From a virus, in the IMG/VR virus record IMGVR_UViG_3300050011_000393, positions 1 to 64,000 of that record: a stretch of 64,000 nucleotides of DNA; one strand, 5' to 3'. Within the stretch, counting starts at the first letter, position 1; each line of letters begins with the position of its first letter. This document shows, one piece after another, positions 529 to 55,298 of the stretch. Position numbers and translations under genes: made by a program. The notes beneath the pieces are model-generated. The model saw only the letters and a list, made by a program, of their open reading frames with translations, did no database searches and was not told where the DNA came from.

Positions 529-939
529 ATGCCAATTAAAGGTAGTCGAAAACCCCGAGTCTGTAAGTGCGGTGAAAACAACCCAAATAATTTTTATGCC
601 TCTCGTGCGTCGGAATGTAAGTTGTGTCTGCAAGCTAGAACCAGCAAATATCAAACAGGAAATAGCGCCTTCAACCGCAGGCGTCATTTAAAGCGAGAGT
701 ACGGGTGGACCCCTGAAAAATATAATGCCGAGCTAATTAAGCAGCATGGACTTTGCGCGTTATGTGGGAAACCACCTCTTCTGGATGAAGTTCTTCGCGT
801 CGACCACAATCACGATACCGGAGACACCCGAGGATTAATTCATCAGCATTGCAATTCCCTCCTCGGATTCGCCAAAGAGGACACCTCTATTTTGTTAGCC
901 GCTATCGCATACATCCTTCGATATAAAACCAAAAACTGA
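529..939 (+). CDS. Endonuclease VII-like (HNH) homing endonuclease
   Basis: CALCG...VDHNHDTGDTRGLIHQHCNSLLG motif; ATG 529 after GGAAGG. Confidence 0.85.
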   Translation: MPIKGSRKPRVCKCGENNPNNFYASRASECKLCLQARTSKYQTGNSAFNRRRHLKREYGWTPEKYNAELIKQHGLCALCGKPPLLDEVLRVDHNHDTGDTRGLIHQHCNSLLGFAKEDTSILLAAIAYILRYKTKN

Positions 940-956
940 CTTATCAAATCATAAGT
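938..956 (+). promoter_or_regulatory. GACT-N8-CATAAGT motif (putative late promoter)
   Basis: One of 7 exact copies; precedes capsid gene. Confidence 0.7.
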
Positions 957-1024
957 AGAAGGCACTCCTTGAGCAAGAGACTTCGCAAGATTCGCGCTGA
1001 TTACAGCGCCCAAGGAGCACTACC

Positions 1025-2020
1025 TTGATACTGCCGCCTGGAGTTCAGTCAACAACATTAGCTGGCTTTCCGCAAATTGCCTATGATCGAACTGCGATTA
1101 TGGAGTGGCAATTTAATACGCCTTTCTTAGAGGAATTGTGCGACTTCCGTCCTCTGGCCCGTCGGTCAGGTCGAACAATACAGTTTTACGGGCAGACCCC
1201 GTTTGCTGCTGCGACCTATGACTTGTCCGAAGGCGTTCCTGGTCCGTCGCTCCAACTGAACCAAGTGTTCAGCGATTCTTTCGCCGACGAATACGGCGAC
1301 TGGATTGGCGTGAGCAACGTGGCTCAGCAAATGTTCCTCGCGGACATCACGCTGGATGCAGCCCGCAACCTGTCTTATCGCGGCGCTCTGACCAGCAACC
1401 TGATTGCGATTAACGCTTTCGAAGCGTCCGCAACCAACAACACCTCGGCCCGCATTGACTTGCTCGACAACGAGTACATGCTGTCCAACACCATCCGCAA
1501 GTGCGAGTCCCAGTTGATGGGCAACGCAGTGCCAGGTCGCGATGGCGGAATGTACACCTCGGCCATGCACCCTTACGTTGTGTACGACTTCATGTCGGAC
1601 AACAGCGCAGGCTCGGCCGTCGACACACTGAAGCGTTCGGATTCCGGCGCGGGAGTTCTGAAGTCGGACATGACACGCGGCTACTCCGTTCTCGAATGGA
1701 GCGGCGTCCGCATCATCCGCACCCCGACCGTTCCGACGTACTCCAACTATCCTTCCGTCGGTAAGACGGGCTACGCGACATACGTTGTGGGTCGTGAAGC
1801 GGTCATCGCATCTGAACTGTTGGGCGTCAAAGTTCCACGCAGCCCCAGCTTCAAGGTGAACGTCAAGACCTTCGGCGATAGCGACATCGATCTTTCGAAC
1901 CCGATGTTGCAGACACGCGCGATTGTTTCTTATGACTGGTTTTTAGGGGTGGTCGCACGCCCAAATACGAACAATACAACAGGCTTTAGGCGCGTTCGCG
2001 GAGAAGTTTCCGCCGTCTAA
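1025..2020 (+). CDS. Major capsid protein (N4-gp56-like, HK97 fold)
   Basis: 331 aa; PLARRSGRTIQF...LSEGV...EYGDW and MHPYVVYDF segments typical of the family; AAGGAG SD before TTG. Confidence 0.8.
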   Translation: MILPPGVQSTTLAGFPQIAYDRTAIMEWQFNTPFLEELCDFRPLARRSGRTIQFYGQTPFAAATYDLSEGVPGPSLQLNQVFSDSFADEYGDWIGVSNVAQQMFLADITLDAARNLSYRGALTSNLIAINAFEASATNNTSARIDLLDNEYMLSNTIRKCESQLMGNAVPGRDGGMYTSAMHPYVVYDFMSDNSAGSAVDTLKRSDSGAGVLKSDMTRGYSVLEWSGVRIIRTPTVPTYSNYPSVGKTGYATYVVGREAVIASELLGVKVPRSPSFKVNVKTFGDSDIDLSNPMLQTRAIVSYDWFLGVVARPNTNNTTGFRRVRGEVSAV

Positions 2021-2071
2021 ACGCTTGACTCTGAAAGAGATTCGGGTTAGTATGGCATTGGAGAAACTCTG

Positions 2072-2521
2072 ATGCCATACAAAGACCCAAATAGTCCAGC
2101 AGCAAGAGCGAACCTCGCCAAACGCACCAAAAAATGGCGGGAAGCGCATCCGGAAAAATGGGCTGCGATTAGCAAAAGAACAAGCCGTACTCGGTACTAC
2201 AAGCATATGCACGGTATTACTGAAGCCGAGTTCGAATCGCAGATTGAAACGCAACATGGTCTTTGTCCGATAGGGAATCATCCCTTCGGGCCGCGAGGCA
2301 AAACAGCAGGCGCTCCGTGCCAAGACCACAACCACACAACAGGCGAGAACCGCTTGATTCTGTGCCGAGAACACAACGTGGGTCTCGGATGCTTCAAAGA
2401 TTCAGTGCCTGAACTTGAGGCAGCAATTTTGTACTTGAAATCTTTTGAGAAACAAACAGGAGAACTACCGTGCCAAACGCATCCACAATTCGTCGGCAAG
2501 TCGCAGGAACGCAGCAACTGA
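2072..2521 (+). CDS. Endonuclease VII-like homing endonuclease
   Basis: HGITEAEF...QHGLCPIG...QDHNHTTGENRLILCREHNVGLG. Confidence 0.8.
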   Translation: MPYKDPNSPAARANLAKRTKKWREAHPEKWAAISKRTSRTRYYKHMHGITEAEFESQIETQHGLCPIGNHPFGPRGKTAGAPCQDHNHTTGENRLILCREHNVGLGCFKDSVPELEAAILYLKSFEKQTGELPCQTHPQFVGKSQERSN

Positions 2522-3081
2522 CTATCGCTCCGTTGGTTGGCGCGACGGTCAGCACTACCGCGACCGCGTTTCAGCTCAACAACAACGGCCTGACTCTGAC
2601 TGGCGGGGGCGTTATTCCTCTGTCCGCAGGCGTCACGGGTTTGTATCAGGGAACTGGCCAGGTGCTCTGGATTCATTGTGCGGGCACGGTTACGGGGTTC
2701 ACCGCGAACTCAAGTACGCTGGCCCTGCAGTTGTATCAAGTGCCAGCATCTTTGCTGCCTATTGCTAACACACTGGCAGCGGCGCAGTCATTTACGAGCT
2801 GGAACAGCATCGGCTCGCAGTCGGCAGCTTCTTTTGGAACTACAGAAACCGCCGGGTCTTTCACGTTTGACGCATATGTCCAACTCGATGCTCAAGGGAA
2901 CCTGATGGGTTATTACGATGCTAACATCGGGGCAACGACCAAGGCTCAGACCGTCATTACGCCAATCACAGGTTTGGTCGGCGAACAGGATCTGAACTTT
3001 GTGCTTGTGGCTACCATCGGCACAGCGGCCCCTGCTGGCGCAATCGTTACACTCGACGAACTTTCTTTGAACTACGTCTAA
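2470..3081 (+). CDS. Virion structural protein (capsid decoration-like)
   Basis: Beta-rich Thr/Gly/Ala composition, follows capsid; AGGAG SD before GTG. Confidence 0.55.
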   Translation: MPNASTIRRQVAGTQQLTIAPLVGATVSTTATAFQLNNNGLTLTGGGVIPLSAGVTGLYQGTGQVLWIHCAGTVTGFTANSSTLALQLYQVPASLLPIANTLAAAQSFTSWNSIGSQSAASFGTTETAGSFTFDAYVQLDAQGNLMGYYDANIGATTKAQTVITPITGLVGEQDLNFVLVATIGTAAPAGAIVTLDELSLNYV

Positions 3082-3117
3082 AACGCTCGGCAATAGATTC
3101 GGGCGCAAGCCCAATTC

Positions 3118-3150
3118 ACCACCTTGGGACTTGTCTCAAGGTGGTTTTTT
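3118..3150 (+). terminator. Rho-independent terminator
   Basis: ACCACCTTGGGAC-TT-GTCTCAAGGTGGT hairpin followed by T-run. Confidence 0.75.
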
Positions 3151-5562: not shown

Positions 5563-8500
5563 GTGGCTGACGAGACGACCCAGACCCCTGCGCCTGCACC
5601 AGTACCCGACTCGATTCCGATTGACTTGGAGCCGTCTGCTGCTCCTGCATCTATTCCTATCGACTTGAACCCAACATACGACCCGACTCAGGACAAGCGC
5701 GCGCCGTTCCTCAAGACGAATCTAAATCCAACGGGCCCAACCATCCAAGAGGCGCATAAACCTCTGACACAACGCGTCAAAGAAGCAGTCACAGAAAACA
5801 TTCCTGAATTTTCGCAGAGGACTGTCAACGACCCGAAGTACGGCACAAAATCTTTCCTGCCTGACTCAGATGTAATGACTCAGCAGGAACGGAAAGACCT
5901 GCCCGTTGTCGCGGGAGCCATGGACGTGGCCAGTGAGCTGGCTTCCCCTGGGACTATTGGCACCATCGCTGCGACGGCGGGCTTAGGGGAGGCTCCTGCG
6001 ATAGTTTCGAAGGTCGCGTCTGCGTTATTCGCTGGCCAAATTGCCAAATCCGTTTACGACCAGTACCCGGCGCTGCAGGCGGCCGTCGACAAGGCCCAGC
6101 ACGCGAAGTCTCAGCAAGAACACGATGATGCTTTTGCGGATGCGCAGAAAATCCTGACGCACATGGGCGTCGACACCGCGTTCGGGTTGCTGGCGGCGAA
6201 GCACGGCGCGGAGGGCGCGAAAGATTTGCTGGATGCAACCACGGGCAGCGGAGTGCCTGATGAAGCGTCTACCCTGAAAGCGAAGTATCAAGAGAACCAA
6301 ATTGCACCCCGCGCGCCAGAACCGGAAGAGAAACCCGCTGCGCCTGAAGACGTTCATCCCGAGATGAATCGGCAGACGGTCAAGGAACTGCAGCATCTGG
6401 GGTATTCAACGCAACACATTACCAATTTCAATATCACTGAAATTCGCGACATTCTCAAAAATCAAACACCTGCATCTGAATATAAATTTTCCACGACCGA
6501 CCGTCGGTGGAATCCTGATCTACCAAATCCGGCAACAGCCAAGCCCGCTCCTGAGCCAGATAAGTTCGCCGACCAAGGCGGCAAGCTAGTTGGGCCTCAA
6601 CCAGAAACTGAAGCAGCCGCCGAAAAGCCTTCTCAGACCGCCGAAAACGCCACGGAAACCGCAGACCCCGTCGAAGACCTTATCATGTCCGACAAGATTC
6701 AAGGTAAGAAAGTGAAGGGTGCGACACCTAAGGTTGAGCCGACCGAATTGGCGCGCAGCGCGGGGCCGACCCCGAGCGGATTGATTGAGCGTACAACAGG
6801 CGACCCGAAGTCTGACGCCGCCATCAAGGCGGGAGGTGCGGTTCCCGCAGGCACAATGCTTGGGCTAGTCCAGTTTCACGACCCGAAAACAGGCAGCACC
6901 TTGGCGCTAAAGCCCGAGGCGGTCACGCCCGAAGCGGTCCAGCAACATCTCGCCGCGTCCCGCAAAGCCTTTGGCCTGACTCCGGAGCCTGATGCGCTGG
7001 CGGGAGTCGGCGGTAAGTTTGTAGGCCAGCAGCCTGCTGCGGCACCAGCACCTTATCATCCTGACTTACAAAAGGTTATTGATGATAACGGCGGTACGCA
7101 CTCAAGCGCAGCCAAAGCGGTTTCGCCAGACGAAGGGTCTTTTATTACGCCTGACGGAAAATTTGTTAGCGTAAAAGGGACCCATGATATTGCTATTGGC
7201 CGCGCGAATCCAAAAGACCGACCAGAAGGCCGCATCGATAATCGCCCTAGTTTTTTAGATGATACTGGCGCGATACGTACCAGAATGCGTGTTACCAAGG
7301 CGGGTAGTTCATTAAGTGTGACTGTCCCTAAAAACGGGATTTCTCCTGAACAATTAGATGCGTTGCGGCGGTCAGTCCAAGCTATGGGGCCGTACGGGAA
7401 TTTGGTAATAGAACGTTCAGATATCAGCCGAAATAACAGGGACACCGCCAGCACAACGAAAGAGCAGGTAAAGCCCTACCAAGTTGAGGACGCCCTCCGC
7501 GAAATCGGCGCGCATCCCGAGCAGCAAGATATTCTATCCAAAGAACTCCATACTCCGCACAAACAAACATATGGGATGGAAGTCACAGACGCTGAAGGCA
7601 AAGTTCAGAATGTGCCAATCGAAGCGCATTCTGCCAAGCAGGCGCTCAACACCATCGTAAAGAAATTCCCAGACGCGCATCGCTGGCGTTTGGCGACCGC
7701 GCCTGAAGAAAAGGCACCCTCAACTGACTACTCTGTACCTGCAGGCAAGATACAGAAAATGAAAGAGTCGGCAGGACGGTCTGAGATTCACACTATCCGT
7801 CACGAATTAGGACATATATTCGCAGGGGCGGCTGTGGGCATGAAAACTAACGGGATGCTTAGTTCTTCGCACCCCGCTATGCCGAGCGATGCGCGCGCTG
7901 CGGTTGCTTGGAGTTCTGACGGTTTGTATGAGAAGGGGCGCATCAAACCCGACAAAAGACTGGCGGTAATTCAGGCGTCTCTGGGCGGCATCGCCGCCGA
8001 CAAAGTGTTCAATGATACCCCGCGTTCCGCGAATCATAATTTCGATATCCGCGCTGGCGGGGATGGAACAAAAGCCTACGAACTGTTGCGCGACGCAGGG
8101 TATAATCATGCGGACGCGATGGAAAAAATGCACGAGCTAATTGATACAGAAGTCGAACGTCTGAGTCATCCAGCAATCATGTCCGTTATACATGAGAACG
8201 CAGGTGTGCGCGAGCCAGGTTTGTCGCGGCAGTATCACTACAGTCCCGAGCGGCTAAATTCAATCGTGGCGGAAGCCAATAGGAGAATGACCGATGAAAA
8301 ATATACCGAAAAGCGTGACAACGGAGCAGCTAATGGGGCAGTTAACCAAGGACGTGAAGGCGATGTCGCCCGAACAGAAAGCGGAGTTTCGCCTGCAGTT
8401 GGAAGCGAGCCTAAAAAAGAAGGGGTAATCAATGACAACGGAGCAACTGGGTCAGGCGGTTCTGAAATCAGTCCAGCAGATGTCGCCAACGGAAAAAGCG

Positions 8501-18900: not shown

Positions 18901-18930
18901 TTGACACCCGTATTAGTACTTTGGTACTAT
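18901..18930 (+). promoter_or_regulatory. sigma70 promoter overlapped by GTAC-N4-GTAC operator
   Basis: TTGACA-N18-TACTAT; GTAC-TTTG-GTAC at 18916-18927. Confidence 0.75.
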
Positions 18931-18936
18931 GCCTGA

Positions 18937-23293: not shown

Positions 23294-23315
23294 TTTATTT
23301 TGGGACATACTTCTT

Positions 23316-23334
23316 GACTTTTCATATCATAAGT
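23316..23334 (+). promoter_or_regulatory. GACT-N8-CATAAGT motif
   Basis: Exact copy upstream of the endonuclease gene. Confidence 0.65.
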
Positions 23335-23348
23335 AGTAGAGTAAAAAT

Positions 23349-28826: not shown

Positions 28827-29458
28827 TGGAAGAACCAAAAACAAGTGAGTACATCCTGAATCAAGTGAAGCACCAGGCCATCACCATGGCGGAAACTGAA
28901 GATGAGTGCGAGCGCGGTTATGCGCACCTCGGATGGATGCTGCTGGAAGTCGCCGATATGCAGTACTGGCGGGTCCAGCACGAAACTTTCCGCGACTACC
29001 TGCGCGCCGTCGCCATGGTCTCGAAGAAAACGCCAGAAACTCTCCATCGATATTTTCTTACGGTTCGAGATTTAAGCGACACATTTTCCGCCGCGCAGCT
29101 TGAGTCCATGGGAATCTCGAAAGCGATGAAATTAAGACAAGCTAAGGACTATGCAATCGTCATTCCTTCAGTTATTATTAACGCGGCGCTCGATTCAACA
29201 GTGACGATTAAAGAATTGAAAAAACTGATATCTACAACCCTTCGCATGCCTGAAGATGAGGGAGATTGGTTCGACCTCGGTGCGGAGTTTTATGTGTCTC
29301 CTGAGGAGCGAGCAACCATCGAAGACGCCATGAAAGCTGCTGAACATTGTGATCCAATAACTAAAAAAACCATAAGTATATCTATGCAAAGGAAGGATAT
29401 AGTGTTAAAATGGTGCATGAATTTTTTGGCGGACTATTCTCCCGAAGGTGGGTCGTGA
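28826..29458 (+). CDS. Hypothetical helical DNA-binding-type phage protein
   Basis: LGWMLLEV...YW...TFRDYL motif; coupled TAATG. Confidence 0.55.
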   Translation: MEEPKTSEYILNQVKHQAITMAETEDECERGYAHLGWMLLEVADMQYWRVQHETFRDYLRAVAMVSKKTPETLHRYFLTVRDLSDTFSAAQLESMGISKAMKLRQAKDYAIVIPSVIINAALDSTVTIKELKKLISTTLRMPEDEGDWFDLGAEFYVSPEERATIEDAMKAAEHCDPITKKTISISMQRKDIVLKWCMNFLADYSPEGGS

Positions 29459-32305: not shown

Positions 32306-32323
32306 TGACCTAGGAGAATTTAA

Positions 32324-32803: not shown

Positions 32804-32822
32804 GACTAAACCATCCATAAGT
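32804..32822 (+). promoter_or_regulatory. GACT-N8-CATAAGT motif
   Basis: Exact copy. Confidence 0.65.
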
Positions 32823-34272: not shown

Positions 34273-34297
34273 CTTCTTACAACTTATTACAGAAACT

Positions 34298-34316
34298 GAC
34301 TAATCAAACCATAAGT
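34298..34316 (+). promoter_or_regulatory. GACT-N8-CATAAGT motif
   Basis: Exact copy. Confidence 0.65.
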
Positions 34317-35061: not shown

Positions 35062-35095
35062 TTGACATTTAGAGAAGTCAATAGTACTTTAGTAC
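35062..35095 (+). promoter_or_regulatory. sigma70 promoter with GTAC-N4-GTAC operator
   Basis: TTGACA at 35062; GTAC-TTTA-GTAC at 35084-35095. Confidence 0.65.
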
Positions 35096-35113
35096 TGCGG
35101 AGGGTTTAGGTTC

Positions 35114-35890: not shown

Positions 35891-36771
35891 CGGACCTGGT
35901 GATCGGCTTCGCCGCAAATTTCACCTGGAAAGACCTCGAACCCTTCGCTGTTTCTCTTGCCCGATCAGGGTATACAGGAAAAAAAGTTTTGTTCGCGCAA
36001 CGGTTGACTCAAGAGGCATGCGACTTTTTGACGTCTTTCGGCTTTGAATTACTTCCTCTTCCCGTGCTTGAGTACTCCGACCCTGAAATTACGAAGGGCG
36101 GGTACTTCGCTTACGTGGCGCGCTTCCTCTTGATTCATCGCTACCTGTACGACAACCCCGATTATAGATTTGTGGTGTGCGCCGATACGCGTGACGTCAT
36201 ATTCCAGCACGACCCGATGGCATGGATCGAGAAAAATATCGGCGACAAAGGTATCGTCGCGGCGTCCGAACATATTTATCACTGGGCCCAAAAAGGAAAC
36301 ACTGACTGGGTCATGAAGAATTTCAAGGAAGTCGACTCTTGGATGATGTCTCAGCCCGTGTATTGTTCTGGTCTGATCTCGGGGCGCGCAGACTACATCC
36401 GAGACTTGGCCATGAGCATTTATTTGATGGGCCGCGCACTAAGCGGAAATACCTGGGGAGCAGACCAGCCATCATATAACTCAATCATACACCAGAAAGC
36501 GTACGCGGACGCAACTCTGGTTCCATCCATGTCCGATGCGTACTGCCTACACTTGGTAGTGGTGGCTTTTGAAGAATATCGCAAAATGATGACCGATGCT
36601 CCCCCTCCAGTTCAGTTTGGGACCTGCTCGTCTGATGGCATCAACCCGCCTAATATGTGGGACTACGACCTTCGGGACCTGTCTAATTTCTCGGTCATTC
36701 ACCAATACGACAGAATGCCGAAGCTGGCCGAACAGATTCGCGCGAAATATAAGATGGGTTCGGAAAAGTGA
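35887..36771 (+). CDS. GT-A fold glycosyltransferase-like protein
   Basis: ADTRDVIFQHDP, CSG, ADQ..YN, IHQYDR. Confidence 0.78.
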   Translation: MTDLVIGFAANFTWKDLEPFAVSLARSGYTGKKVLFAQRLTQEACDFLTSFGFELLPLPVLEYSDPEITKGGYFAYVARFLLIHRYLYDNPDYRFVVCADTRDVIFQHDPMAWIEKNIGDKGIVAASEHIYHWAQKGNTDWVMKNFKEVDSWMMSQPVYCSGLISGRADYIRDLAMSIYLMGRALSGNTWGADQPSYNSIIHQKAYADATLVPSMSDAYCLHLVVVAFEEYRKMMTDAPPPVQFGTCSSDGINPPNMWDYDLRDLSNFSVIHQYDRMPKLAEQIRAKYKMGSEK

Positions 36772-36788
36772 CTTGTTCCTCCATAAGT
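36770..36788 (+). promoter_or_regulatory. GACT-N8-CATAAGT motif
   Basis: Exact copy at the head of the tail gene block. Confidence 0.7.
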
Positions 36789-44171: not shown

Positions 44172-44190
44172 GACTTCTTTCCCCATAAGT
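44172..44190 (+). promoter_or_regulatory. GACT-N8-CATAAGT motif
   Basis: Exact copy. Confidence 0.7.
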
Positions 44191-44218
44191 AGAGGGGTCA
44201 TTCCCTCATCCAAAATTT

Positions 44219-44890
44219 ATGGCAACTGCTCCCATTTTCGGAGAAATCTACGTTCATATGAATGTATCGAATGGGAAGAGCTACGTCGGTCAGACAACTG
44301 TCGGCATGGCGAAGCGGTGGGCTGGCCACATAAAAGAGCGGCGAAATCGAGTTTTTTCACATGCTATTAGAAAGTATGGGGTTGAGTTTTTTGCCCATCA
44401 AGTTTTGTCTGTGGCGTCTTCCCAAGAGCAATTAGATAATTTGGAAAAACTCTGGATTATTCTTCTTCAAACCAAAACTCCAAACGGATATAACCTAACA
44501 AACGGAGGAGAGGCAGGAACTTTAGGGTATCGACATACTCCGGAATCTTTGGCTCTTATTACGGCAGCGTCAGCGGGGAGAAAAGCGTCTCCGGTCACTC
44601 GGGAAAAACTTTCCAAAATTCATATAGGTAAGAAAATGCCTCGCAGCGGGGTTGAAAAAATGGCGGCCAGCAAGCGCGGAAAAAAGCAGTCTTCCGAGAC
44701 TATTGCTAAACGTTCAGCCGCGATGTCTAAAGTGATGCTAGGAAAAAAGAAATCCGATTCTCATCGTCGAAATATCGGATTAGCCCAAAAAGGTAAAAAG
44801 CAAACCGCAGAGCGTAAAGCAAATACATCAAAGGTTATGCAGGCGTGGTGGGATGCGAGAAAGAAGGTATCGCCATGGCCCGCCGCATAA
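44219..44890 (+). CDS. GIY-YIG homing endonuclease with NUMOD3 repeats
   Basis: EIY...NGKSYVGQT..R...H, GYNLTNGG, repeated GKK.S.E motifs. Confidence 0.9.
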   Translation: MATAPIFGEIYVHMNVSNGKSYVGQTTVGMAKRWAGHIKERRNRVFSHAIRKYGVEFFAHQVLSVASSQEQLDNLEKLWIILLQTKTPNGYNLTNGGEAGTLGYRHTPESLALITAASAGRKASPVTREKLSKIHIGKKMPRSGVEKMAASKRGKKQSSETIAKRSAAMSKVMLGKKKSDSHRRNIGLAQKGKKQTAERKANTSKVMQAWWDARKKVSPWPAA

Positions 44891-47800
44891 GCCAATCTGA
44901 TCCGGCGCTAGAAATTCCGTTCTTTTTATCGGGATTTTACACGTTTAGATCTCAATTGTTCGCCCCGTACAAAGCAATTGGGGTGTCAATTGTGTCATAT
45001 CACGACCCCGTGCTAGACGGCGCAAATTTTGAGAATACGGATCTTTTTGAATGGCAGCGCCGCCCCGGGTTCTCTCGATACTGTCCGACATTGTTGCCCT
45101 CCAATGAAGTGATCAACCAGTTTATGTTCTTTCGAAATTTGAAAGGACAGGTCGTAGATTATTTCGATTCGACTGCCCGCTTGGCCACGTTCACATCAAC
45201 TGGCGTGAACACCATTGTTGCGAAAACCACCACCGCACAGGGGTATATTTCCACGCTGGGAAACATGACGTACTTTGCGGATGGAGCGGCCGCCGATTAT
45301 TCCAAATCGGACGGCACTAATACTTCTGCGTGGGGCATCGCCGCGCCAACAATTGTCCCTACATCCACAGGCATGGGGTTCTGGCAGCCAGAGGCTAAGT
45401 TCGTTCTTGGCGAGCCGATTCAAGATCCGAACGGTAATATCGAAGCAGTCTCCGCGATTCTGATTCCAAACGGCAGCGTGGAATCTCCTACTGCGTATAC
45501 TGAACTGGCACTTGCTGGCGGCATCGGGGCCTGGGGGTCGGGTTCGATTACGGCAGGCAGCAACATCTCCCAAACCATTGTGACGGTAGGTCACACCAAA
45601 TATTTGTTTTTATACGACTTCAATCTTTCCATTCCGGCAGGCGCAACCATTATAGGGATTTCGGCTAGCGTGCCTAAACAGATAATCGGCGGGACAGCGG
45701 TGGACCAATCCGTGAAATTGGTGGTTGGCGGTTCGGTGGTCGGGGCGGATCTCGCATCGGGCGCGCCATGGAGCACCTCGGCTTTCGTAACTTCGATATA
45801 CGGCGGCCCTACCAACACCTGGTCTTCATCCTTGACCGCAACGCAAGCGAGTACACAAGGCCCGAGTGGATTTGGTTTGGCGATTGCGGCCAATGTGACC
45901 AGCACGACGAACTATAATTTGGTGCAGAGCGGCACAAGCAATTCCTTCGTGTCCGCCAGCACGGTCTATACCTTCCCGAATCCTGTGACGGTCGGAAACA
46001 CCATTGTGATTGGTCTTTTGATGTTTCATGAGGGATTCGTTTCAATTTCCGATAACCATGGAAACGTGTATACTCAAGCCGTTTCAACGGTCAACGGTGA
46101 AGAGTATGTGGCAGTTTTTGTGGCCCCGGTTCTTACGACAGGCGCAACGACAATCACGGTTGTGACTAGCGGGCTGAATTTTAATACCATTACTGGTATT
46201 AACGCTCATGAATTTCATGGGGTTCTATCTGCTTCCGCGATAGCGACGACTGGAGCTAACAACACTCCCGCGTCACCATTTAATTCTGGGACGGTTACGG
46301 TTTCAAACGCGGACGATCTAATTTTCTCGTTTCTGTGGCAAAGCCCAGGAGCCACCATCCCAGTCGGATATACCCGTGCGACAGTTCAAGATATCTACGA
46401 TTCCCCGGGGGGCGCTCCTTTTACCGCGCAAGCCGCCGCAGCCTTCTACGCGCCTGGATCCACAGGGTCTTTTTCGCCAACTTGGAGTCAAGGTAGTATT
46501 GGCGTGACGGCGGTCCTCAAATCTGCGGAGAGCGCGACGGTTTCAGTCGGCGGCGGCGCTCCGAATTCCCCCATTATTACTATATATTACCAACTCCCGA
46601 CGGGTGTCGGCCCCGGGTTCTCTGGCCCTACTGAACCGATTTGGTCTACTACGACTGGCGGCACGGTTAATGACGCAGGATTGGCCTGGACGAACTATGG
46701 TCCAGTCGAAATCTGGTTTCCGCTGACGAACTATCCTGTGCCTGTAGTCGTGCTCGATTCGAACGGGAATTTGCAATTAGCGACGACAACCACTAATCCT
46801 GTCGCGCCATGGGATTCCGGCACAGGGTATGCCGTGAATGCCGTGGTGTCTTATGGTGGCGGGTATTGGATCAACGTTCTGGGGGCAACGAATACAGGAA
46901 ATCCCCCGAATAGTTTGGCCAGCACTGCAACTACGAGCGGCAGCACAACGATCACCACGGCATACTGGGCCGTGGCGTCTAATCCTGTTGTGACAGGCTT
47001 GATAGCTCCTGTCTGGCAAACAACTCTGGGTGCGCTTACCGTCGACGGAAATTATACATGGAAAAATCTGGGACCAGGCTCTCCGCTGGCCAGTTTCGGG
47101 CATGCCTACGTCTATGGATATCGAACAGTATACGGGCATCTCTCGACCTGCAGTCCGTTCAGCAATAATACGGGAGCCATTCTCGGGCCACTGAATGGCA
47201 GCATTTCATCCTACGCGATTTCATCGAACGTGGTCACATTCCAAGGAAGCAACAACTTTCAGATCGGTGATATTTTTACGGTCACTGGGCTGACCGTCGG
47301 CACGTATTTAAACGAGCAAGTTTTCACCGTAACGTCCGCTGTGCCGTCCGCGATCTTTCCGCTCACCTCAGTCGCGGTCAGCGGCAGCAACGTTCTGACG
47401 ATTTTAGCGATAAACAATCTGGTTGTCGGTCAAACGGTCACGTTCAGCAACGTCGCGAACGCCACATTTTTAAACGGGGTTACGGTCACCGTTCTCGCGA
47501 GCGGATTGAGCGCCACCCAATTCGAAGCTAACTTCACTCACGCATCCTACGGCGCAACGGCAGATACAGGCAGCGTTTTGATTAACGGAAGCTGGACGGC
47601 TAATTTTGTTTTCGCGGACACAAGTTCCACGTCGGACTCAGGGACGGCCGCCCCACTTCTCTCGACTATAGCCGGAGTCGGAACAGGCTCACCCCTCTGC
47701 AATTCTATCGCGGCCATCACCGCGTTCTCGGTCACGGCGAATATCATTACCCTGACCGCGAGTAATAATTTTCAGCCCGGTCTGTGGGTCACGCTTACTG

Positions 47801-49239
47801 GACTGTCGGTTGCAACCTTCTTAAACGGGCAACAAGTGCAGGTTATAGCCGTCGATCAGCCTGTAGGAATTCAGAATACGTGGTTCCAGGTTTATTTCCA
47901 GACGCCGAATTCAGTACAAACGCCGGATGCAGGCACTGCGACATTTAACGCGGTGGAGATCTACCGCACGTCCGACGGCGGCGGCACTTATTTGTTCGAC
48001 GGCGCGGTCACAAACCCGGGCTTGAATTTGCCGTGGGTATTCGATGATTTTGTGATTGATGCTAACTTGGATATTTTGTTGATTGCTCCGCTGTACCACC
48101 AGAATGACCCGCCGCCGGGCGCACCAGGATCCTCGATCAATACGGTCGGGGCTCTGTCGGTTTATTGGCAAGGTCGGATTTGGTTGGTCGTCGGCAACTA
48201 TGTATACTACACTTCAGGACCTGATTGCACGAACGGCATTCCGGAAGAGGCGTGGGCACCTGGAAATCGGTTCCAGTTTTCAGGTCCTGTGATGAATTTG
48301 CAGCCGACCGCAGACGGTGTCGCCCTGCTTGTTTTCTTGGCCGACAGTGTTAACGCGATTCTGGGCGGTCCTGAGACGATTAGCTTCTATGCTTCGGATT
48401 TCCTGAGTAACTTTGGGATCTCCAGCTCTAACGCAATTTTCCGTGATGGGTCCACCATCGGTTTGTTCACGACACAGAAGCAATATTTTGAACTTCTCGG
48501 CGCGCAAAAAGACGATGTTGGCAAAAACATTTCGAATTACTTGGCGGCGAATTTCGCGGCGGCAAAATCTTATGTTACTATGCATCGCAACGGTACGGAT
48601 GTAGGGCTGTTCATTAGCAATGGAGTAGACCGCATCCTGCGTTTTGGGCCAGATGTTCCGTCCTGGAGCGTTCCTGCATTTCCTTCCTTCGGCGCAGGTG
48701 CGATCCGCTCGGTCGAGACTTCGGTCGGAGAGTACAGCCTGCTGTTGGCGACACCGAACGGCGGCCCGAATAATTATATTTATGCGCGCGATTTGAATTC
48801 ATGGGGCGACAATAATACGACCCTTGGCGCAAATGACGGCGCGTCTTACCCCTCCTGCTATATCACGGTCGGCAGCATCACGTTGTCGCCTCTGGGAGGA
48901 CGCGGATTCCCTCTGCAGCATGTATCAGGGTATTTCGACGCGGTCGGAACTCTCGCGAATGGCGGCCCATCGCAGCCCAACATTTGGATTCTGCCGAACG
49001 AAGTCAGCGGCACTTCAGGCATCGGATTTATTCAACTGCCCGAGGTTGTTCAAGAACCGCCACAAGGGCAAAATTATCCGTCGACTACGCTCTTGGCTTT
49101 ACGGTGGAACGTTAATATGATGAACAGTAGTCTGGCATCGCAGTTCATGCATCATATCCAGGTGAAGATCCAATTTGAGAGCGAAAACGCCCCTAACACT
49201 ATCAAGGCGATTTCGTTCGGAGAGGATCAGTCCACATAA
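44875..49239 (+). CDS. Large tail protein (nozzle/stabilisation-like) with repeated beta modules
   Basis: N-terminal RRPG, VEIYRT, WQGRIW segments; repeated T.D....W.N.G and FLNG..V.V modules. Confidence 0.6.
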   Translation: MARRISQSDPALEIPFFLSGFYTFRSQLFAPYKAIGVSIVSYHDPVLDGANFENTDLFEWQRRPGFSRYCPTLLPSNEVINQFMFFRNLKGQVVDYFDSTARLATFTSTGVNTIVAKTTTAQGYISTLGNMTYFADGAAADYSKSDGTNTSAWGIAAPTIVPTSTGMGFWQPEAKFVLGEPIQDPNGNIEAVSAILIPNGSVESPTAYTELALAGGIGAWGSGSITAGSNISQTIVTVGHTKYLFLYDFNLSIPAGATIIGISASVPKQIIGGTAVDQSVKLVVGGSVVGADLASGAPWSTSAFVTSIYGGPTNTWSSSLTATQASTQGPSGFGLAIAANVTSTTNYNLVQSGTSNSFVSASTVYTFPNPVTVGNTIVIGLLMFHEGFVSISDNHGNVYTQAVSTVNGEEYVAVFVAPVLTTGATTITVVTSGLNFNTITGINAHEFHGVLSASAIATTGANNTPASPFNSGTVTVSNADDLIFSFLWQSPGATIPVGYTRATVQDIYDSPGGAPFTAQAAAAFYAPGSTGSFSPTWSQGSIGVTAVLKSAESATVSVGGGAPNSPIITIYYQLPTGVGPGFSGPTEPIWSTTTGGTVNDAGLAWTNYGPVEIWFPLTNYPVPVVVLDSNGNLQLATTTTNPVAPWDSGTGYAVNAVVSYGGGYWINVLGATNTGNPPNSLASTATTSGSTTITTAYWAVASNPVVTGLIAPVWQTTLGALTVDGNYTWKNLGPGSPLASFGHAYVYGYRTVYGHLSTCSPFSNNTGAILGPLNGSISSYAISSNVVTFQGSNNFQIGDIFTVTGLTVGTYLNEQVFTVTSAVPSAIFPLTSVAVSGSNVLTILAINNLVVGQTVTFSNVANATFLNGVTVTVLASGLSATQFEANFTHASYGATADTGSVLINGSWTANFVFADTSSTSDSGTAAPLLSTIAGVGTGSPLCNSIAAITAFSVTANIITLTASNNFQPGLWVTLTGLSVATFLNGQQVQVIAVDQPVGIQNTWFQVYFQTPNSVQTPDAGTATFNAVEIYRTSDGGGTYLFDGAVTNPGLNLPWVFDDFVIDANLDILLIAPLYHQNDPPPGAPGSSINTVGALSVYWQGRIWLVVGNYVYYTSGPDCTNGIPEEAWAPGNRFQFSGPVMNLQPTADGVALLVFLADSVNAILGGPETISFYASDFLSNFGISSSNAIFRDGSTIGLFTTQKQYFELLGAQKDDVGKNISNYLAANFAAAKSYVTMHRNGTDVGLFISNGVDRILRFGPDVPSWSVPAFPSFGAGAIRSVETSVGEYSLLLATPNGGPNNYIYARDLNSWGDNNTTLGANDGASYPSCYITVGSITLSPLGGRGFPLQHVSGYFDAVGTLANGGPSQPNIWILPNEVSGTSGIGFIQLPEVVQEPPQGQNYPSTTLLALRWNVNMMNSSLASQFMHHIQVKIQFESENAPNTIKAISFGEDQST

Positions 49240-49718
49240 TGAAAACTACAGCAGATGACGCGCGGACCTCTCAGCCAGGAGCAGTTCCTACAACTCCACT
49301 TGTATGGCCTGCGGACAGACAAAAATCTAATCAAATCCAACAAATTAAAGGGTCAGCCAAGCCGCAGGCCACTTTTGTGCTGCCGTCTACGCAACCGAAT
49401 ACGTCATATGTGCCCCCGCGCACCACGCCGCAGCATGTTTCGAATGTGCGGGTGATTTCCTCGAAGGCCGTTGCGGGAAATAAAACCGTAACGGTGCAAT
49501 TCAACCACCCATCAAATGACCCTTATTTTTCAGGGGCGAACGTGTATCTCAGGCGCGCGGGACAGCAGCCGACTTTAGTTGCTTCGGGCGCGAAATCTCC
49601 CCTGACGTTCACCGTTCCGGTTCACTCCGCTGCGCACGTCATTCATGTCAGCTCGGTCGGGAATTGGGGAGAGACCAGTGTGGCGACCAGCCCTGCCCAT
49701 CCAGTTCGTCTCGTTTAA
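49239..49718 (+). CDS. Virion protein with FN3-like domain
   Basis: FSGANVY...VSSVGNWGE pattern. Confidence 0.5.
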   Translation: MKTTADDARTSQPGAVPTTPLVWPADRQKSNQIQQIKGSAKPQATFVLPSTQPNTSYVPPRTTPQHVSNVRVISSKAVAGNKTVTVQFNHPSNDPYFSGANVYLRRAGQQPTLVASGAKSPLTFTVPVHSAAHVIHVSSVGNWGETSVATSPAHPVRLV

Positions 49719-49737
49719 GACTTATTCAACCATAAGT
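49719..49737 (+). promoter_or_regulatory. GACT-N8-CATAAGT motif
   Basis: Exact copy. Confidence 0.7.
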
Positions 49738-49749: not shown

Positions 49750-50226
49750 ATGAGCGCAACAGATGGTTGGAAGTTTCGGTTGGCGGGCCCAGAGGACGCT
49801 GAAGCGTTCACTCAGTGGACTTTAGCCAATCCGCAGATCGACCCGAAAGATATTGAAGCGGCTAAAAAAGACAACAACCCGACGGTGTTGTTTTTTGCTA
49901 TTGAAAACGCGGATGGAAAAGTTATATCTTTTGCGCCCGTATATATTCAATCAGTTCTCGCACATTTAGTTTTTAACCCTGAAGCCAGCGGGAAAGAGCG
50001 GCTGAACGCTTTGCAGATGACGCTGAATGGTGTCGCATCTTTTTCGGTCGGGCTCGGGATTCGGGAAATCACGACCCTGAGCAAACCAGAATACGGTGTT
50101 GCAAAGTGGGCAATGAAACACGGCTTTGAATTAGAGCCCAGGCAAGTTTTCAAGTTTGATATCAATAAGGTGCTCGCCGTAGCAAAGGAAGAAAAAGATG
50201 GCGTCGGTTTATCTACATACGAATAA
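49750..50226 (+). CDS. GNAT-fold-like protein (internal virion protein A type)
   Basis: FRLA.PED start, AMKHGF end; position before ejection-like genes. Confidence 0.45.
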   Translation: MSATDGWKFRLAGPEDAEAFTQWTLANPQIDPKDIEAAKKDNNPTVLFFAIENADGKVISFAPVYIQSVLAHLVFNPEASGKERLNALQMTLNGVASFSVGLGIREITTLSKPEYGVAKWAMKHGFELEPRQVFKFDINKVLAVAKEEKDGVGLSTYE

Positions 50227-53670: not shown

Positions 53671-53680
53671 AGAAAAAATT

Positions 53681-54979
53681 ATGGGACAAGCCAGTATCGA
53701 CGACATCGTTTCGAATCAGGGCCCGGCTGTTGCGCCTCCAACAGCGGCTGCTGCCGCCGCGCCCGTGAGCGGGACTGCGCATGTCGATGACATTGTTTCG
53801 AATCAAGGTCCTGCGCCCGGGTCTATTACCGAAGCGAATCAGAAATATAATCAACCCTTTCAGCCCGTGCCAAAAGATCCCGTCGCTCCTCCGCAGGACC
53901 ACAAGGAAGAATTGGTTAAAAGCGTCGGCGGGGATCATGGGTTAGCTGCTTATCGTGCTGCCCGAAAAGCCGTAGATGGCGTGGAGTTAATGATTAAGGC
54001 TCCTGCTGCATCATATGACGCAGCTAAAGAATTAGTTCGAAATCTCGGTACGGACATGTTGTCTAACGTCAAAGCGAATCTGACGGAAACAGACCCAAAT
54101 CACGGACAGATGTACGCAGCGCCGATTTTTCCTGCGCCGGGAGTAGGCACGGCTACACAAGCCTTTGCCGATACAGCTCCTGCGGTAAGTACGACAGCTC
54201 CTATCGCCGCTGCTACCACCGCACCCGCAGGCGATAGTCTTATGACTCGACTGACAAATCCGTTTAAGAAATGGTTGGCAACGCCGAAAGACGCAGGTGC
54301 TGCAGCAACTCAGGAGCCTACTGCCGCAGCCGTGCGAGACGTGACTGGATCTCCCGCAAGCGCGCCGATTGTTTCTCGCGAAGCAGGTACAACCGCCGCT
54401 GACGATATGTTGAACAACCTCGGAGTTCAAAAAGACGCCGCATATAAAAAGATTGATGATATTGCGGAATTTGATTTGAAGGCGGAGAAACAAAAACTCT
54501 CCGATACGAAGTACGCCATCAAGCAGCCAGGCGCAGACGTCAAGGGGCTACAGGAAGAAATGGATCTAAGCAATCAAAAAATCGCCGATGCCAATAAAAA
54601 ATTGGTCAAGGCAGGAATCAATCCCAAAGACGCCGACGAACTCAACAAGGCGTGGGAAGCGACGAAATTATTTAAGCAGGATCTCGTCAGGGCTACAAAG
54701 GCTGACGGGACTCTGGACGTGAATGTCTTGTTGAAGCGCGCAAATAGCCGCTTCAATCCTCGGTATGGCGACCGCCTCGCCCAGGCGTTTGGTAAAGGTG
54801 ACGCGCAAGCGGGCAAAGCAATCGCCTCGAAATACATTCAAGGACTCGAAGCGGCCCAGGCCGCAGGTCAGCACGCGCTCAGCACCCAGCGATTCAAACT
54901 GTGGCTGACGGGGCTTGGCGCGACTGCTGGAATCGGGAGCGCAGGATATAAAACGCTCGAGACTTTACTTGCTCCCTAA
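53681..54979 (+). CDS. Internal virion/ejection protein
   Basis: Duplicated DDIVSNQGPA at N-terminus; hydrophobic Gly-rich C-terminus. Confidence 0.55.
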   Translation: MGQASIDDIVSNQGPAVAPPTAAAAAAPVSGTAHVDDIVSNQGPAPGSITEANQKYNQPFQPVPKDPVAPPQDHKEELVKSVGGDHGLAAYRAARKAVDGVELMIKAPAASYDAAKELVRNLGTDMLSNVKANLTETDPNHGQMYAAPIFPAPGVGTATQAFADTAPAVSTTAPIAAATTAPAGDSLMTRLTNPFKKWLATPKDAGAAATQEPTAAAVRDVTGSPASAPIVSREAGTTAADDMLNNLGVQKDAAYKKIDDIAEFDLKAEKQKLSDTKYAIKQPGADVKGLQEEMDLSNQKIADANKKLVKAGINPKDADELNKAWEATKLFKQDLVRATKADGTLDVNVLLKRANSRFNPRYGDRLAQAFGKGDAQAGKAIASKYIQGLEAAQAAGQHALSTQRFKLWLTGLGATAGIGSAGYKTLETLLAP

Positions 54980-55037
54980 TCGCCGAAGCAATATAAAGTC
55001 CAGAACCCGCCAAGAATCGCACAGATAAATAGTAAAA

Positions 55038-55196
55038 TCATGATTGCCTCTCTGCGTTGAGAATGGCGACTTCGGGTCCGTCGTTTGCAGGGTCTTGTTG
55101 CTCGATTTGATCCACCAAATCATTATAGCCCCCGAACCGCAGCGTCCGCTTGATTAAGATGTAATCATCTGAACTCACTTCTATTTTGAATTTCAC
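55038..55196 (-). CDS. Small hypothetical protein
   Basis: GGAGG SD before GTG. Confidence 0.45.
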   Translation of the reverse strand: MKFKIEVSSDDYILIKRTLRFGGYNDLVDQIEQQDPANDGPEVAILNAERQS

Positions 55197-55242
55197 AGTG
55201 TTGCCTCCAATTCCTACAGTGTACAGATGTTTCAAATCCTTG

Positions 55243-55298
55243 GCAATAGTACTTTAGTACCAAGAGTTTGGCGCTTTAAGACTTTTCATTACATAGTT
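55243..55298. promoter_or_regulatory. Divergent control region: GTAC-N4-GTAC box and GACT-N8-CATAGTT variant
   Basis: GCAATAGTACTTTAGTAC at 55243-55260; motif variant at 55280-55298. Confidence 0.6.

What the first reader, a model, noticed from the sequence alone, without database searches (positions are those of the whole stretch)
938..55298. Bipartite motif GACT-N8-CATAAGT at the head of structural operons
Exact copies with fixed 8-nt spacing occur at 938, 23316, 32804, 34298, 36770, 44172 and 49719, with variants at 29359 (AACT) and 55280 (CATAGTT). All are on the + strand and nearly all sit at gene boundaries before capsid, tail and ejection genes or homing endonucleases. It does not match a sigma70 consensus, and the compact spacing suggests a phage-specific late promoter.
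Basis: partly seen in the sequence, partly recalled or inferred. Interest (0 to 1): 0.72.

Follow-up and report, generated by a model that had tools for sequence, protein, structure and literature searches.

The report
Phage-specific late promoter motif
A two-part 19-base DNA signal, repeated 13 times on one strand of a 97-kb soil phage genome and kept in all its uncultured relatives, is most likely the phage's own promoter for virion and homing-endonuclease genes, and it does not fit the rules of the ordinary bacterial sigma factor.

Summary
GACT-N8-CATAAGT occurs 7 times in the window (0.03 expected) and 13 times in the whole 96.7-kb phage record. Every copy is on the + strand and lies between + strand genes. 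The element is clade-wide: over 11 related records a loosened form is found 106 times on the gene strand and 8 on the other, and only with the 8-nt spacer. Orthologous sites are kept in a relative of about 70% nucleotide identity. The full element spans about 30 nt (WWnnW-GACT-N8-CATAAGT-R-purine-rich). It has no -35 element, and no register satisfies the sigma70 -10 rule. A separate class of canonical TTGACA-N18-TACTAT promoters with GTAC-N4-GTAC operators drives other genes. The motif heads the major head, portal and large virion genes, several small unknown genes, and free-standing homing endonucleases that bring their own copy. So "structural operons" is only partly right. Best reading: a phage-specific late promoter whose start lies at the purine right after CATAAGT. 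This is inferred; no transcript data exist. No phage RNA polymerase was found. The best candidate reader is a phage protein that fuses a sigma-region-4 fold to a NusG module (55785-57146, minus strand). It is present in every motif-bearing complete genome and absent, with the motif, from the outgroup.

The parts
938..956 (+). Exact motif copy. It overlaps the stop codon of ORF 472-939. A conserved leader of about 68 nt follows, then the major head protein gene 1025-2020. Predicted start near 957.
   Evidence: major head protein phrog_1357 E 1.6e-15; orthologous copies with a conserved leader in 9 relatives
3119..3150 (+). Strong intrinsic-terminator-like hairpin plus T6 that closes the head-protein cassette opened by the 938 motif.
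   Evidence: -16.5 kcal/mol, TTTTTT
23316..23334 (+). Exact copy 14 nt before an endonuclease VII/HNH-type free-standing endonuclease gene (23349-23825). Motif and gene form one 546-bp insertion that G001 lacks.
29359..29377 (+). One-mismatch variant (AACT) inside the 3' end of ORF 28826-29458, 32 nt before another endonuclease gene (29410-29949).
32804..32822 (+). Exact copy right after the GH108 endolysin gene (32324-32800). The next conserved gene is 32929-33114 (61 aa, unknown).
34298..34316 (+). Exact copy with an extra conserved upstream block (TTATTACAG, 5-6 nt before GACT) that it shares with 75702 and 95704. Small unknown genes follow. The orthologous site in G001 reads CATAGGT.
36770..36788 (+). 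Exact copy overlapping the TGA stop codon of the glycosyltransferase-like gene 35887-36771. A 52-nt leader with a conserved hairpin follows, then gene 36841-37812 (323 aa, all-beta, probably a virion protein). In G001 the 3' half reads TATAGTA.
44172..44190 (+). Exact copy followed at once by a GAGGGG...CCCTC hairpin. In this genome a GIY-YIG endonuclease gene (44219-44890) sits between the leader and the 1464-aa gene (44845-49239). In G001 the same motif and hairpin directly precede the orthologous 1412-aa gene.
49719..49737 (+). Exact copy abutting the TAA stop codon of ORF 49239-49718. AAGGGG follows directly and the ATG of gene 49750-50226 lies 12 nt after the motif.
55280..55298 (+). Two-mismatch variant (CATAGTT) before gene 55315-55512. 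The orthologous site in G001 is a perfect copy.
55785..57146 (-). Candidate reader of the motif (inferred link): a 453-aa protein with a sigma-region-4-fold helix-turn-helix domain (about residues 85-148), a second helical domain, then NusG-type NGN (277-382) and KOW (383-440) domains.
   Evidence: AF2 pLDDT 76.6; Foldseek NusG/Spt5/RfaH prob 1.0; VIA Z about 8 for NGN and KOW, Z 6.2 with rmsd 1.1-2.1 A for sigma region 4; ESM atlas Sigma70_r4 0.90; gene present in G001, G002, G004, G007-G010, absent in Tunturi_3

Best explanation
The motif is the core of a phage-specific promoter class, about 30 nt long: WWnnW-GACT-N8-CATAAGT-R followed by a purine-rich stretch. It drives the late genes of this roughly 97-kb phage and its uncultured relatives. 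These genes include the head protein, the portal, large virion proteins and several small unknown genes, plus free-standing homing endonucleases. The class is distinct from the phage's canonical sigma70-type promoters, which carry operators. Those presumably fire first and produce the factor that the motif needs. Transcription is predicted to start at or next to the purine that follows CATAAGT (window 957, 23335, 32823, 34317, 36789, 44191, 49738). On that reading the AT-rich CATAAGT is the melted segment and GACT is a duplex contact about 1.2 helical turns upstream. No phage RNA polymerase is detectable. The host core enzyme is therefore probably redirected by a phage protein, and the best candidate is the sigma-region-4/NusG fusion encoded at 55785-57146 (minus strand). 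What is shown: the motif's statistics, placement, conservation and misfit to sigma70 rules; the second promoter class; and the fold of the candidate factor. What is inferred: that the motif starts transcription, where the start lies, the timing, and which protein reads it.
For: (1) There are 7 copies against 0.03 expected in the window and 13 of 13 on + in the genome. All lie at + strand gene boundaries.
(2) The motif is clade-wide with a fixed spacer. In 264 kb of portal-anchored loci, spacer 8 gives 79 on the gene strand against 6 on the other, spacer 7 gives 17 against 4, and spacer 9 gives 4 against 11. Pooled over 11 records the count is 106 against 8, and the reversed-pattern control gives 37 on both strands together.
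(3) Orthologous intergenic sites are kept in G001 while the flanks diverge. The site before the portal gene is kept in about 25 loci.
(4) Mobile genes bring or use their own copy. The 546-bp insertion of motif plus endonuclease gene at 23275-23820 is absent in G001. GIY-YIG/NUMOD3 genes inserted next to the portal gene in relatives each have a perfect copy, giving two copies within 0.8 kb.
(5) The density is that of promoters: 13-16 per genome, and three within 2 kb in G004.
(6) The head-protein cassette reads motif, leader, gene, then a strong terminator.
(7) The start is placed by three observations. The start codon lies only 9-14 nt after the motif in about 22 of 69 instances, and there the purine-rich stretch serves as the only Shine-Dalgarno sequence. 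Stable hairpins begin 0-3 nt after the motif in about 10 instances. Conservation continues 5-6 nt past CATAAGT.
(8) Canonical TTGACA-N18-TACTAT promoters with GTAC-N4-GTAC operators exist in the same genome, so the host uses ordinary sigma70 signals and the motif is a second class.
(9) The replication block at 11.3-32.3 kb has the motif only in front of endonuclease genes.
(10) The candidate factor's fold is given. It co-occurs with the motif, and both are absent from Tunturi_3.
Against: No transcript 5' ends are available, and the phage and its host are uncultured. A start immediately after the conserved element is unusual for a bacterial multisubunit polymerase, which normally starts 6-8 nt past its -10 element. 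No intrinsic terminators precede the sites, so read-through from upstream genes could express all of these genes without internal promoters. The link to the sigma4-NusG protein rests on co-occurrence within one clade plus one outgroup, which is phylogenetically non-independent. NusG-family proteins are known as elongation factors, not initiation factors. Some clearly late functions sit behind sigma70-type promoters instead: the endolysin and another endonuclease gene at 2072.
Confidence: 0.55

Rival explanations
1. The motif is a loading site, not a start site. It recruits the phage NusG-type protein onto RNA polymerase that is already transcribing from upstream promoters, in the way ops recruits RfaH or the Q-binding element recruits lambda Q. 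The polymerase then becomes termination-resistant through the late genes.
For: The phage encodes a NusG-type NGN-KOW module fused to a DNA-reading sigma4/Q-like domain. Stand-alone homologues of the N-terminal module give sub-threshold Phage_antitermQ hits. The motif lies on the non-template strand at operon heads, as ops does. A loading site need not leave room for a leader, which would explain motifs only 9-14 nt from start codons. Sigma70-type promoters exist 0.5-2 kb upstream of several sites: 407, 32276, 35069 and 74855.
Against: One loading site per transcription unit should be enough, yet there are 13-16 per genome, sometimes 0.8 kb apart. Inserted endonuclease genes carry their own copy. 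Few terminators exist for an antiterminator to overcome. No conserved promoter or pause signal flanks the motif: information content upstream of -8 is zero, and there is no G(-10)/Y(-1)/G(+1) pattern. The sequence is unlike ops.
Confidence: 0.2
2. The motif is a promoter for an unrecognised phage-encoded RNA polymerase, either single-subunit or of a cryptic double-psi-barrel type, in the manner of T7, N4 or crAss-like phages.
For: The architecture resembles that of T7-type promoters: a compact conserved block of about 30 nt in short intergenic gaps, an AT-rich patch upstream, a purine-rich initial sequence, and a start apparently flush with the element. Several large proteins have no family match: 1464, 688, 664 and 605 aa, and parts of the 1917-aa protein.
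Against: No PF00940 match was found in six frames, although the control genomes gave nothing either. No RNA-polymerase family matched any ORF of 600 aa or more. No DxDGD-type catalytic motif occurs in any long frame. The unannotated large genes lie in the late region behind the motif itself, so they could not be made first. The unconserved 8-nt spacer is unlike the contiguous contacts of T7-type enzymes.
Confidence: 0.08
3. The motif acts at the RNA level. It would be a processing site that cuts long late transcripts into gene-sized messages, or a binding site for a translational regulator just upstream of ribosome-binding sites.
For: The motif occurs only on the sense strand, between genes, and often directly before a Shine-Dalgarno-like stretch. 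There are no terminators between late genes, so long polycistronic RNAs are expected.
Against: The distance to the start codon ranges from 9 to about 140 nt, which argues against a translational role. There is no conserved secondary structure. The ACTTAT/ATAAGT self-complementarity of some copies is not kept in others or in G001. A bipartite element with an unconserved spacer of fixed length and an AT-rich upstream patch is typical of duplex-DNA recognition. The self-contained cassettes with mobile endonuclease genes fit an expression signal better.
Confidence: 0.07
4. The motif is an ordinary host sigma70 promoter with a weak -10 element (CATAAG). An activator bound at GACT in the spacer region compensates for the missing -35 element.
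For: The 3' half looks like a -10 element and drifts towards TATAAT/TATAGT in relatives G001 and G008. Three sites and their orthologues carry a TTACA block 17-18 bp upstream of CATAAG, where a -35 element would sit.
Against: No register gives A(-11) together with T(-7) in more than 10 of 54 instances. The invariant T falls at -6 and the usual base at -7 is G. There is no -35 information across 69 instances. A start 6-8 nt after the hexamer would remove the only Shine-Dalgarno sequence from about a third of the genes and cut the 5' hairpins.
Confidence: 0.1

Closest known systems
T4 late promoters (TATAAATA, read by gp55/gp33 with the gp45 clamp on host core polymerase)
   Same: Both are compact AT-rich elements without a -35 element. 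Both occur in many copies on the gene strand before virion genes and before free-standing homing endonuclease genes. Both depend on phage-made factors that replace sigma70 on the host enzyme. The factor dependence is inferred here.
   Different: The sequence differs, and this motif has a second fixed element (GACT) 8 nt upstream. The start appears flush with the element rather than 6-7 nt downstream. I did not search for gp55 or gp33 homologues, so their absence is not tested. The candidate factor has a different architecture.
T7-type promoters of single-subunit phage RNA polymerases
   Same: Both are conserved blocks of about 23-30 nt in tight intergenic gaps. Both have an AT-rich upstream part and a melted AT-rich segment directly before a purine-rich start. 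There are 13-16 copies per genome, all in one orientation.
   Different: No T7-like polymerase gene was found. The middle 8 nt are not conserved, whereas T7-type enzymes read a contiguous sequence.
RfaH/ops and lambda Q/QBE: site-specific loading of a NusG-like or Q antiterminator
   Same: The phage encodes an NGN-KOW module of the RfaH/NusG fold, joined to a sigma4/Q-like DNA-binding domain. The motif lies on the non-template strand at operon heads.
   Different: The sequence is unrelated to ops (GGCGGTAGnnTG). There are many copies per genome, and no adjacent sigma70 promoter or pause signal. Mobile genes carry their own copy. Known NusG paralogues have no DNA-duplex-reading domain.
Sigma54 -24/-12 promoters
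   Same: Both have two short elements about 12 bp apart and no -35 element.
   Different: There are no GG/GC dinucleotides. No sigma54 or enhancer-binding protein is evident. The predicted start is closer to the downstream element.

Membership tests
Sigma70-type (-35/-10) promoter | -35 hexamer related to TTGACA, 16-18 bp upstream of the -10 hexamer | tested here: not met
   Information content is about 0 at every position from -50 to -8 in 69 unique instances. Only three orthologous groups carry a TTACA block there.
Sigma70-type (-35/-10) promoter | -10 hexamer with A at -11 and T at -7 | tested here: not met
   The best register gives both bases in 10 of 54 instances. With CATAAG taken as the hexamer, position -7 is T in only 4 of 54.
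T7-type single-subunit RNA polymerase promoter | A cognate T7-like RNA polymerase gene (Pfam PF00940) in the same genome | tested here: inconclusive
   There is no six-frame match at E <= 1, but the family also rang in none of the control genomes. No ORF of 600 aa or more matches an RNA polymerase family.
T7-type single-subunit RNA polymerase promoter | Contiguous conserved recognition sequence from about -17 to -5 | tested here: not met
   The 8 nt between GACT and CATAAGT carry little information.
RfaH ops element | 12-nt GGCGGTAGnnTG in a transcribed leader downstream of a promoter, about one per operon | tested here: not met
   The sequence differs. There are 13-16 copies per genome, some 0.8 kb apart. 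No flanking promoter signal was found.
Lambda-type Q-binding element | A site embedded in or next to a sigma70 late promoter, with a promoter-proximal sigma-dependent pause element | tested here: not met
   No conserved -35/-10 pair flanks the motif. Pausing is not testable here.
Phage late promoter (functional class) | Primary transcription starts at the element, late in infection and dependent on phage gene products | not testable with these tools
   There are no transcript data. Placement, conservation and gene content are consistent with this class.
NusG/RfaH family (candidate factor at 55785-57146) | NGN domain followed by a KOW domain | tested here: met
   Foldseek gives prob 1.0 to NusG, Spt5 and RfaH chains. 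VIA gives Z 8.1-8.7 for NGN at 277-382 and KOW at 383-440. The profile search against PDB sequences gives only weak KOW hits.
Sigma-70 region 4 fold (candidate factor, residues 85-148) | Helix-turn-helix domain superposable on region 4 of sigma factors | tested here: inconclusive
   VIA gives Z 6.1-6.2 with rmsd 1.1-2.1 A over 57-64 residues to region 4 of SigF, BldN, SigD, SigB and SigW. This Z is below the level the tool calls safe. The ESM atlas nearest clusters are Sigma70_r4 at 0.90. One stand-alone homologue passes the Pfam Sigma70_r4_2 cut-off. The protein itself has no Pfam hit.

The most novel reading that the evidence does not exclude
The sigma4-NusG fusion protein is itself the promoter-specificity subunit. 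Its sigma-region-4-type domain(s) would read GACT as duplex DNA while docked on the beta flap. Its NGN domain, sitting on the beta-prime clamp helices where sigma region 2 normally binds, would capture the CATAAGT segment of the non-template strand, much as RfaH captures ops. Host core polymerase would then start without any sigma factor, a few bases downstream. The same protein would stay on as a built-in antiterminator through the late genes. This would be a sigma-independent route of promoter recognition in bacteria, with initiation and elongation control joined in one polypeptide.
Probability: 0.2. Interest if true: 0.9.

Novelty: new variant of a known kind. Interest (0 to 1): 0.6.

Why it matters
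Phage-specific promoter classes have repeatedly revealed new ways of steering bacterial RNA polymerase; T4 gp55/gp33, N4, phiEco32 and P23-45 are examples. This one defines the transcription programme of a whole clade of about 97-kb soil and peat phages. No close cultured relative or prophage of this clade is known. The motif has an unusual geometry: two short elements 8 nt apart, no -35 element, no valid -10 register, and a start apparently flush with the element. It is paired in every complete genome with an undescribed protein that joins a sigma-region-4 fold to NusG. If the two are linked, the pair is a compact system that can be tested in vitro for sigma-free or sigma-mimicking initiation. 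Even if they are not linked, the motif gives an immediate operon map for annotating these genomes and a portable expression signal for study.

Tried and rejected
1. Megablast of 8 kb against 50,697 phage records found no match. tblastn with the 323-aa protein found none. With the portal protein the only hit was Tunturiibacter phage Tunturi_3 at 22% identity.
2. A search for a phage RNA polymerase found nothing: PF00940 in six frames, catalytic-motif patterns, and Pfam/PHROGs on all large ORFs.
3. Hairpin or palindrome reading: ACTTAT-N6-ATAAGT is self-complementary in copies 938 and 75702. Positions 4-6 are only 35-61% conserved against near-invariance of the 3' half, and G001 copies do not keep the pairing. 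I rejected this as the basis of the motif.
4. A terminator-then-promoter arrangement is not seen. Only three convincing + strand terminators exist, and none lies just upstream of a site.
5. An exact 15-base pattern scan of IMG/VR gave 38 stretches. Single hits cannot be told from chance; only multi-hit contigs are relatives.
6. Host identification through prophages failed. Neither the fusion protein profile nor the portal protein found a relative in 185,579 species genomes.
8. Fold search of the 323-aa protein behind site 36770 gave no PDB match at E <= 0.001 and only weak phage tail, decoration or capsid-like matches in BFVD. "Structural" is therefore only probable.
9. A hydropathy scan of the small genes behind 32804 and 34298 showed no clear holin.
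10. Two literature searches (one for the Tunturi phages, one for phage-encoded NusG and late promoters) returned no paper describing a sigma4-NusG fusion; they did not query the motif sequence itself.

Full report
**What the window is.** The window is the first 64 kb of a 96,667-bp linear IMG/VR phage record, estimated 97% complete. One gene runs across the record's ends (95749-96667 plus 1-399), so the record is a permuted representation. Gene content is as follows:
- Major head protein at 1025-2020.
- A 1917-aa polyvalent protein at 5563-11316.
- A replication and recombination block at 11.3-27.8 kb: endonuclease VII, A1-like DNA transfer protein, RecA, PolA, Erf, SSB, helicase, PD-(D/E)XK nuclease and primase.
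- GH108 endolysin at 32324-32800.
- Two glycosyltransferase-like genes at 35114-36771.
- A run of large unannotated genes at 36.8-55 kb.
- A minus-strand block from 55.8 to about 73.7 kb with an integrase, an SLT domain protein and many small genes.
- Beyond the window: GroEL, large terminase (90542-92449) and portal (92484-94709).

Nothing similar is among 50,697 deposited phage genomes, apart from a 22%-identity portal match to Tunturiibacter phage Tunturi_3, an Acidobacteriota phage.

**The observation.** GACT-N8-CATAAGT occurs exactly at the seven stated positions, all on the + strand. Shuffles give 0.03 expected. One further match has a single mismatch, at 29359. The whole record has 13 exact copies, all on +, and none lies in the minus-strand block. 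Aligning the 13 copies shows a longer element. It has two A/T positions and one more A/T just upstream of GACT, a pyrimidine-leaning spacer, a C before CATAAGT, and then R-n-A-R-R-G. On the + strand every copy lies between genes, often abutting or overlapping the preceding stop codon. The minus-strand ORFs that a crude caller laid over four sites are not conserved in the nearest relative, whereas the + strand ORFs downstream are.

**Conservation in relatives.** A syntenic relative of about 70% nucleotide identity (G001, 97,240 bp) and 34 portal-anchored IMG/VR loci were fetched.
- In 264 kb of those loci, GACT-N8-nnTAnnT occurs 79 times on the gene strand and 6 on the other. With a 7-nt spacer the counts are 17 and 4, and with a 9-nt spacer 4 and 11.
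- Over eleven records the pooled count for GACT-N10-TA-NN-T-R is 106 on the gene strand and 8 on the other. The reversed-pattern control gives 37 on both strands together.
- Orthologous sites persist in G001 while the surrounding intergenic DNA diverges. GACT and the spacing are kept, and the 3' half drifts: CATAGGT, TATAGTA, GTATGTA, CATAGAT.
- The site between terminase and portal is present in about 25 loci.
- A logo of 69 unique instances has no information anywhere from -50 to -8 relative to GACT, so there is no -35 element.

**Misfit to sigma70 rules.** The 3' half looks like a -10 hexamer. However, no register puts A at -11 and T at -7 in more than 10 of 54 instances. The invariant T falls at -6 and the usual -7 base is G. 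The same genome carries canonical TTGACA-N18-TACTAT promoters with a GTAC-N4-GTAC operator over the spacer and -10 region. They lie before Erf (18901), the endolysin (32276) and the glycosyltransferases (35069), and at several places in the minus-strand block. The host polymerase therefore reads ordinary sigma70 signals, and the motif is a second, separate class. The replication block has the motif only in front of inserted endonuclease genes.

**What follows the motif.** The genes downstream of each site are:
- 938: major head protein (phrog_1357), behind a conserved leader. A strong terminator at 3119-3150 closes this cassette.
- 92455: portal.
- 44172: in G001 it directly precedes the orthologous large (1412-aa) gene. 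In this genome a GIY-YIG endonuclease gene has been inserted after the leader hairpin.
- 23316: this copy and an endonuclease VII-type gene form a 546-bp insertion that G001 lacks.
- 29359 and 86556: both precede further endonuclease genes.
- 36770: a 323-aa all-beta protein, with only weak phage tail, decoration or capsid-like fold matches.
- 32804, 34298, 49719 and 55280: small or unknown proteins.

In relatives, GIY-YIG/NUMOD3 genes inserted beside the portal gene each have a perfect copy of the motif, so two copies can lie within 0.8 kb.

**Why a promoter, and where the start lies.** The arguments for a promoter are these:
- The motif keeps a single orientation that follows gene direction.
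- It sits only at gene boundaries.
- Its density is 13-16 per genome.
- Mobile genes form self-contained cassettes with it.
- The head gene shows a promoter-leader-gene-terminator layout.
- A separate early class of promoters exists in the same genome.

Three observations place the start at or next to the purine after CATAAGT. First, in about 22 of 69 instances the start codon is only 9-14 nt after the motif, and the conserved purine-rich stretch (AGAGA, GAGGG, AGGAG) is the only possible Shine-Dalgarno sequence. Second, in about 10 instances a stable hairpin begins 0-3 nt after the motif and would sit at the very 5' end of the RNA. Third, conservation extends 5-6 nt beyond CATAAGT. A start 6-8 nt further on, as sigma70 geometry would require, would delete these features. 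All of this is inference, because no 5'-end data exist.

**Who reads it.** No T7-like polymerase, catalytic DxDGD motif or polymerase family hit was found in any large ORF. The PF00940 six-frame search has a weak control. The best candidate is the 453-aa product of 55785-57146 on the minus strand.
- An AF2 model (pLDDT 76.6) has a C-terminal NGN plus KOW pair. It matches NusG, Spt5 and RfaH with Foldseek probability 1.0 and VIA Z of about 8.
- Residues 85-148 superpose on sigma region 4 of SigF, BldN, SigD and SigB, with rmsd 1.1-2.1 A and Z 6.2. That Z is below the level the tool regards as safe.
- Language-model neighbours are Sigma70_r4 clusters at 0.90, which is only a lead.
- A profile search shows about ten clusters of full-length fusions. 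It also finds many stand-alone proteins of about 250 aa that are homologous to residues 42-250. These give weak Sigma70_r4_2 and Phage_antitermQ hits. Stand-alone NGN-KOW relatives appear as well.
- The gene is present in every motif-bearing record that is complete or covers that region (G001, G002, G004, G007-G010). Tunturi_3 has neither the gene nor the motif.

This co-occurrence lies within one clade plus one outgroup, so it is weak evidence.

**Rivals.**
- A loading site for the NusG-type protein on polymerase that is already transcribing is the main rival (0.2). It fits the protein's family and tolerates the short distance to start codons. It does not explain the high copy number, the copies carried by mobile genes, the scarcity of terminators, or the lack of a flanking promoter or pause signal.
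- A sigma70 promoter helped by a spacer-bound activator (0.1) conflicts with the -10 register test and with the Shine-Dalgarno and hairpin positions.
- A cryptic phage polymerase (0.08) lacks a gene.
- An RNA-level signal (0.07) lacks structure and shows variable distance to start codons.

**Verdict.** The interpretation as a phage-specific late promoter is the best reading (0.55) but is unproven, and "structural operons" is too narrow. As a promoter class it is a new variant of a known kind. Its geometry and its possible pairing with a sigma4-NusG fusion make it more interesting than a routine consensus. An earlier first-stage note on the overlapping window of this same genome listed the same motif (e1-6005713). 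Another follow-up described the fusion protein (e1-6005712). I re-tested both here.

Noticed in passing
window 957-1030 (leader of the major head gene) and orthologous leaders in L013, L016-L019, L023-L025, L032: The leader after motif 938 is conserved at the nucleotide level (AGAAGGCACTCCTTGAGCAAGA...). It contains a short upstream ORF that starts at the conserved TTG. In this genome the upstream ORF ends in TTGA, overlapping the head gene's TTG start. The CTCCTT segment is complementary to the head gene's AAGGAG ribosome-binding site. At the aligned start-codon position of the head gene, relatives carry TTG, ATG, ATC or ACG. This suggests non-canonical initiation or termination-reinitiation coupling.
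   Followed up: partly
window 2025-2071 and 2072-2521: A further endonuclease VII-type gene lies directly after the head gene. It is preceded by a sigma70-like TTGACT-N17-TAGTAT promoter, not by the motif. Mobile endonuclease genes in this phage therefore use either promoter class.
   Followed up: partly
window 18901-18947, 32276-32322, 35069-35100, 55249-55260, 58107, 61907; genome 65589, 68406: Canonical TTGACA-N18-TACTAT promoters carry a GTAC-N4-GTAC palindrome over the spacer and -10 region. This looks like a repressor-controlled early class. It includes the promoters of Erf, the GH108 endolysin and the glycosyltransferases. Together with the integrase at 61292-62056 it suggests a temperate lifestyle.
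   Followed up: partly
window 34276-34297; genome 75680-75701 and 95682-95703: Three motif copies share an extra conserved block, (C)TTATTACAG, 5-6 nt upstream of GACT. It is kept at the orthologous sites of G001 and of the portal-anchored loci. It sits where a -35 element would lie relative to CATAAG. Its role is unexplained; these sites may form a sub-class with different timing.
   Followed up: partly
proteins P0144-P0267: Residues 42-250 of the fusion protein have many stand-alone homologues of about 250 aa in metagenomes. These give weak Sigma70_r4_2 and Phage_antitermQ Pfam hits. They may be an uncharacterised family of phage late regulators from which the fusion arose.
   Followed up: partly
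window 36841-37812: This is a well-predicted (pLDDT 85) all-beta protein of 323 aa. It has about 100 metagenomic homologues, no Pfam or PHROG family, and no solved-structure match at E <= 0.001. It is expressed from a motif site with a structured leader and is probably an abundant virion protein of unknown type.
   Followed up: partly
window 44191-44208; G001 54731-54745; L026, L028, L037, L046 upstream of the portal gene: GAGGG(G)-loop-CCCTC hairpins start immediately after the motif in several genomes. The loops differ but the stems are kept. They are candidate 5'-terminal stabilising stem-loops of late messages.
   Followed up: partly
window 14423-15418: The phage encodes a full-length RecA (PF00154, E 8e-131) next to an A1-like DNA transfer protein, Erf, SSB and PolA.
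   Followed up: no
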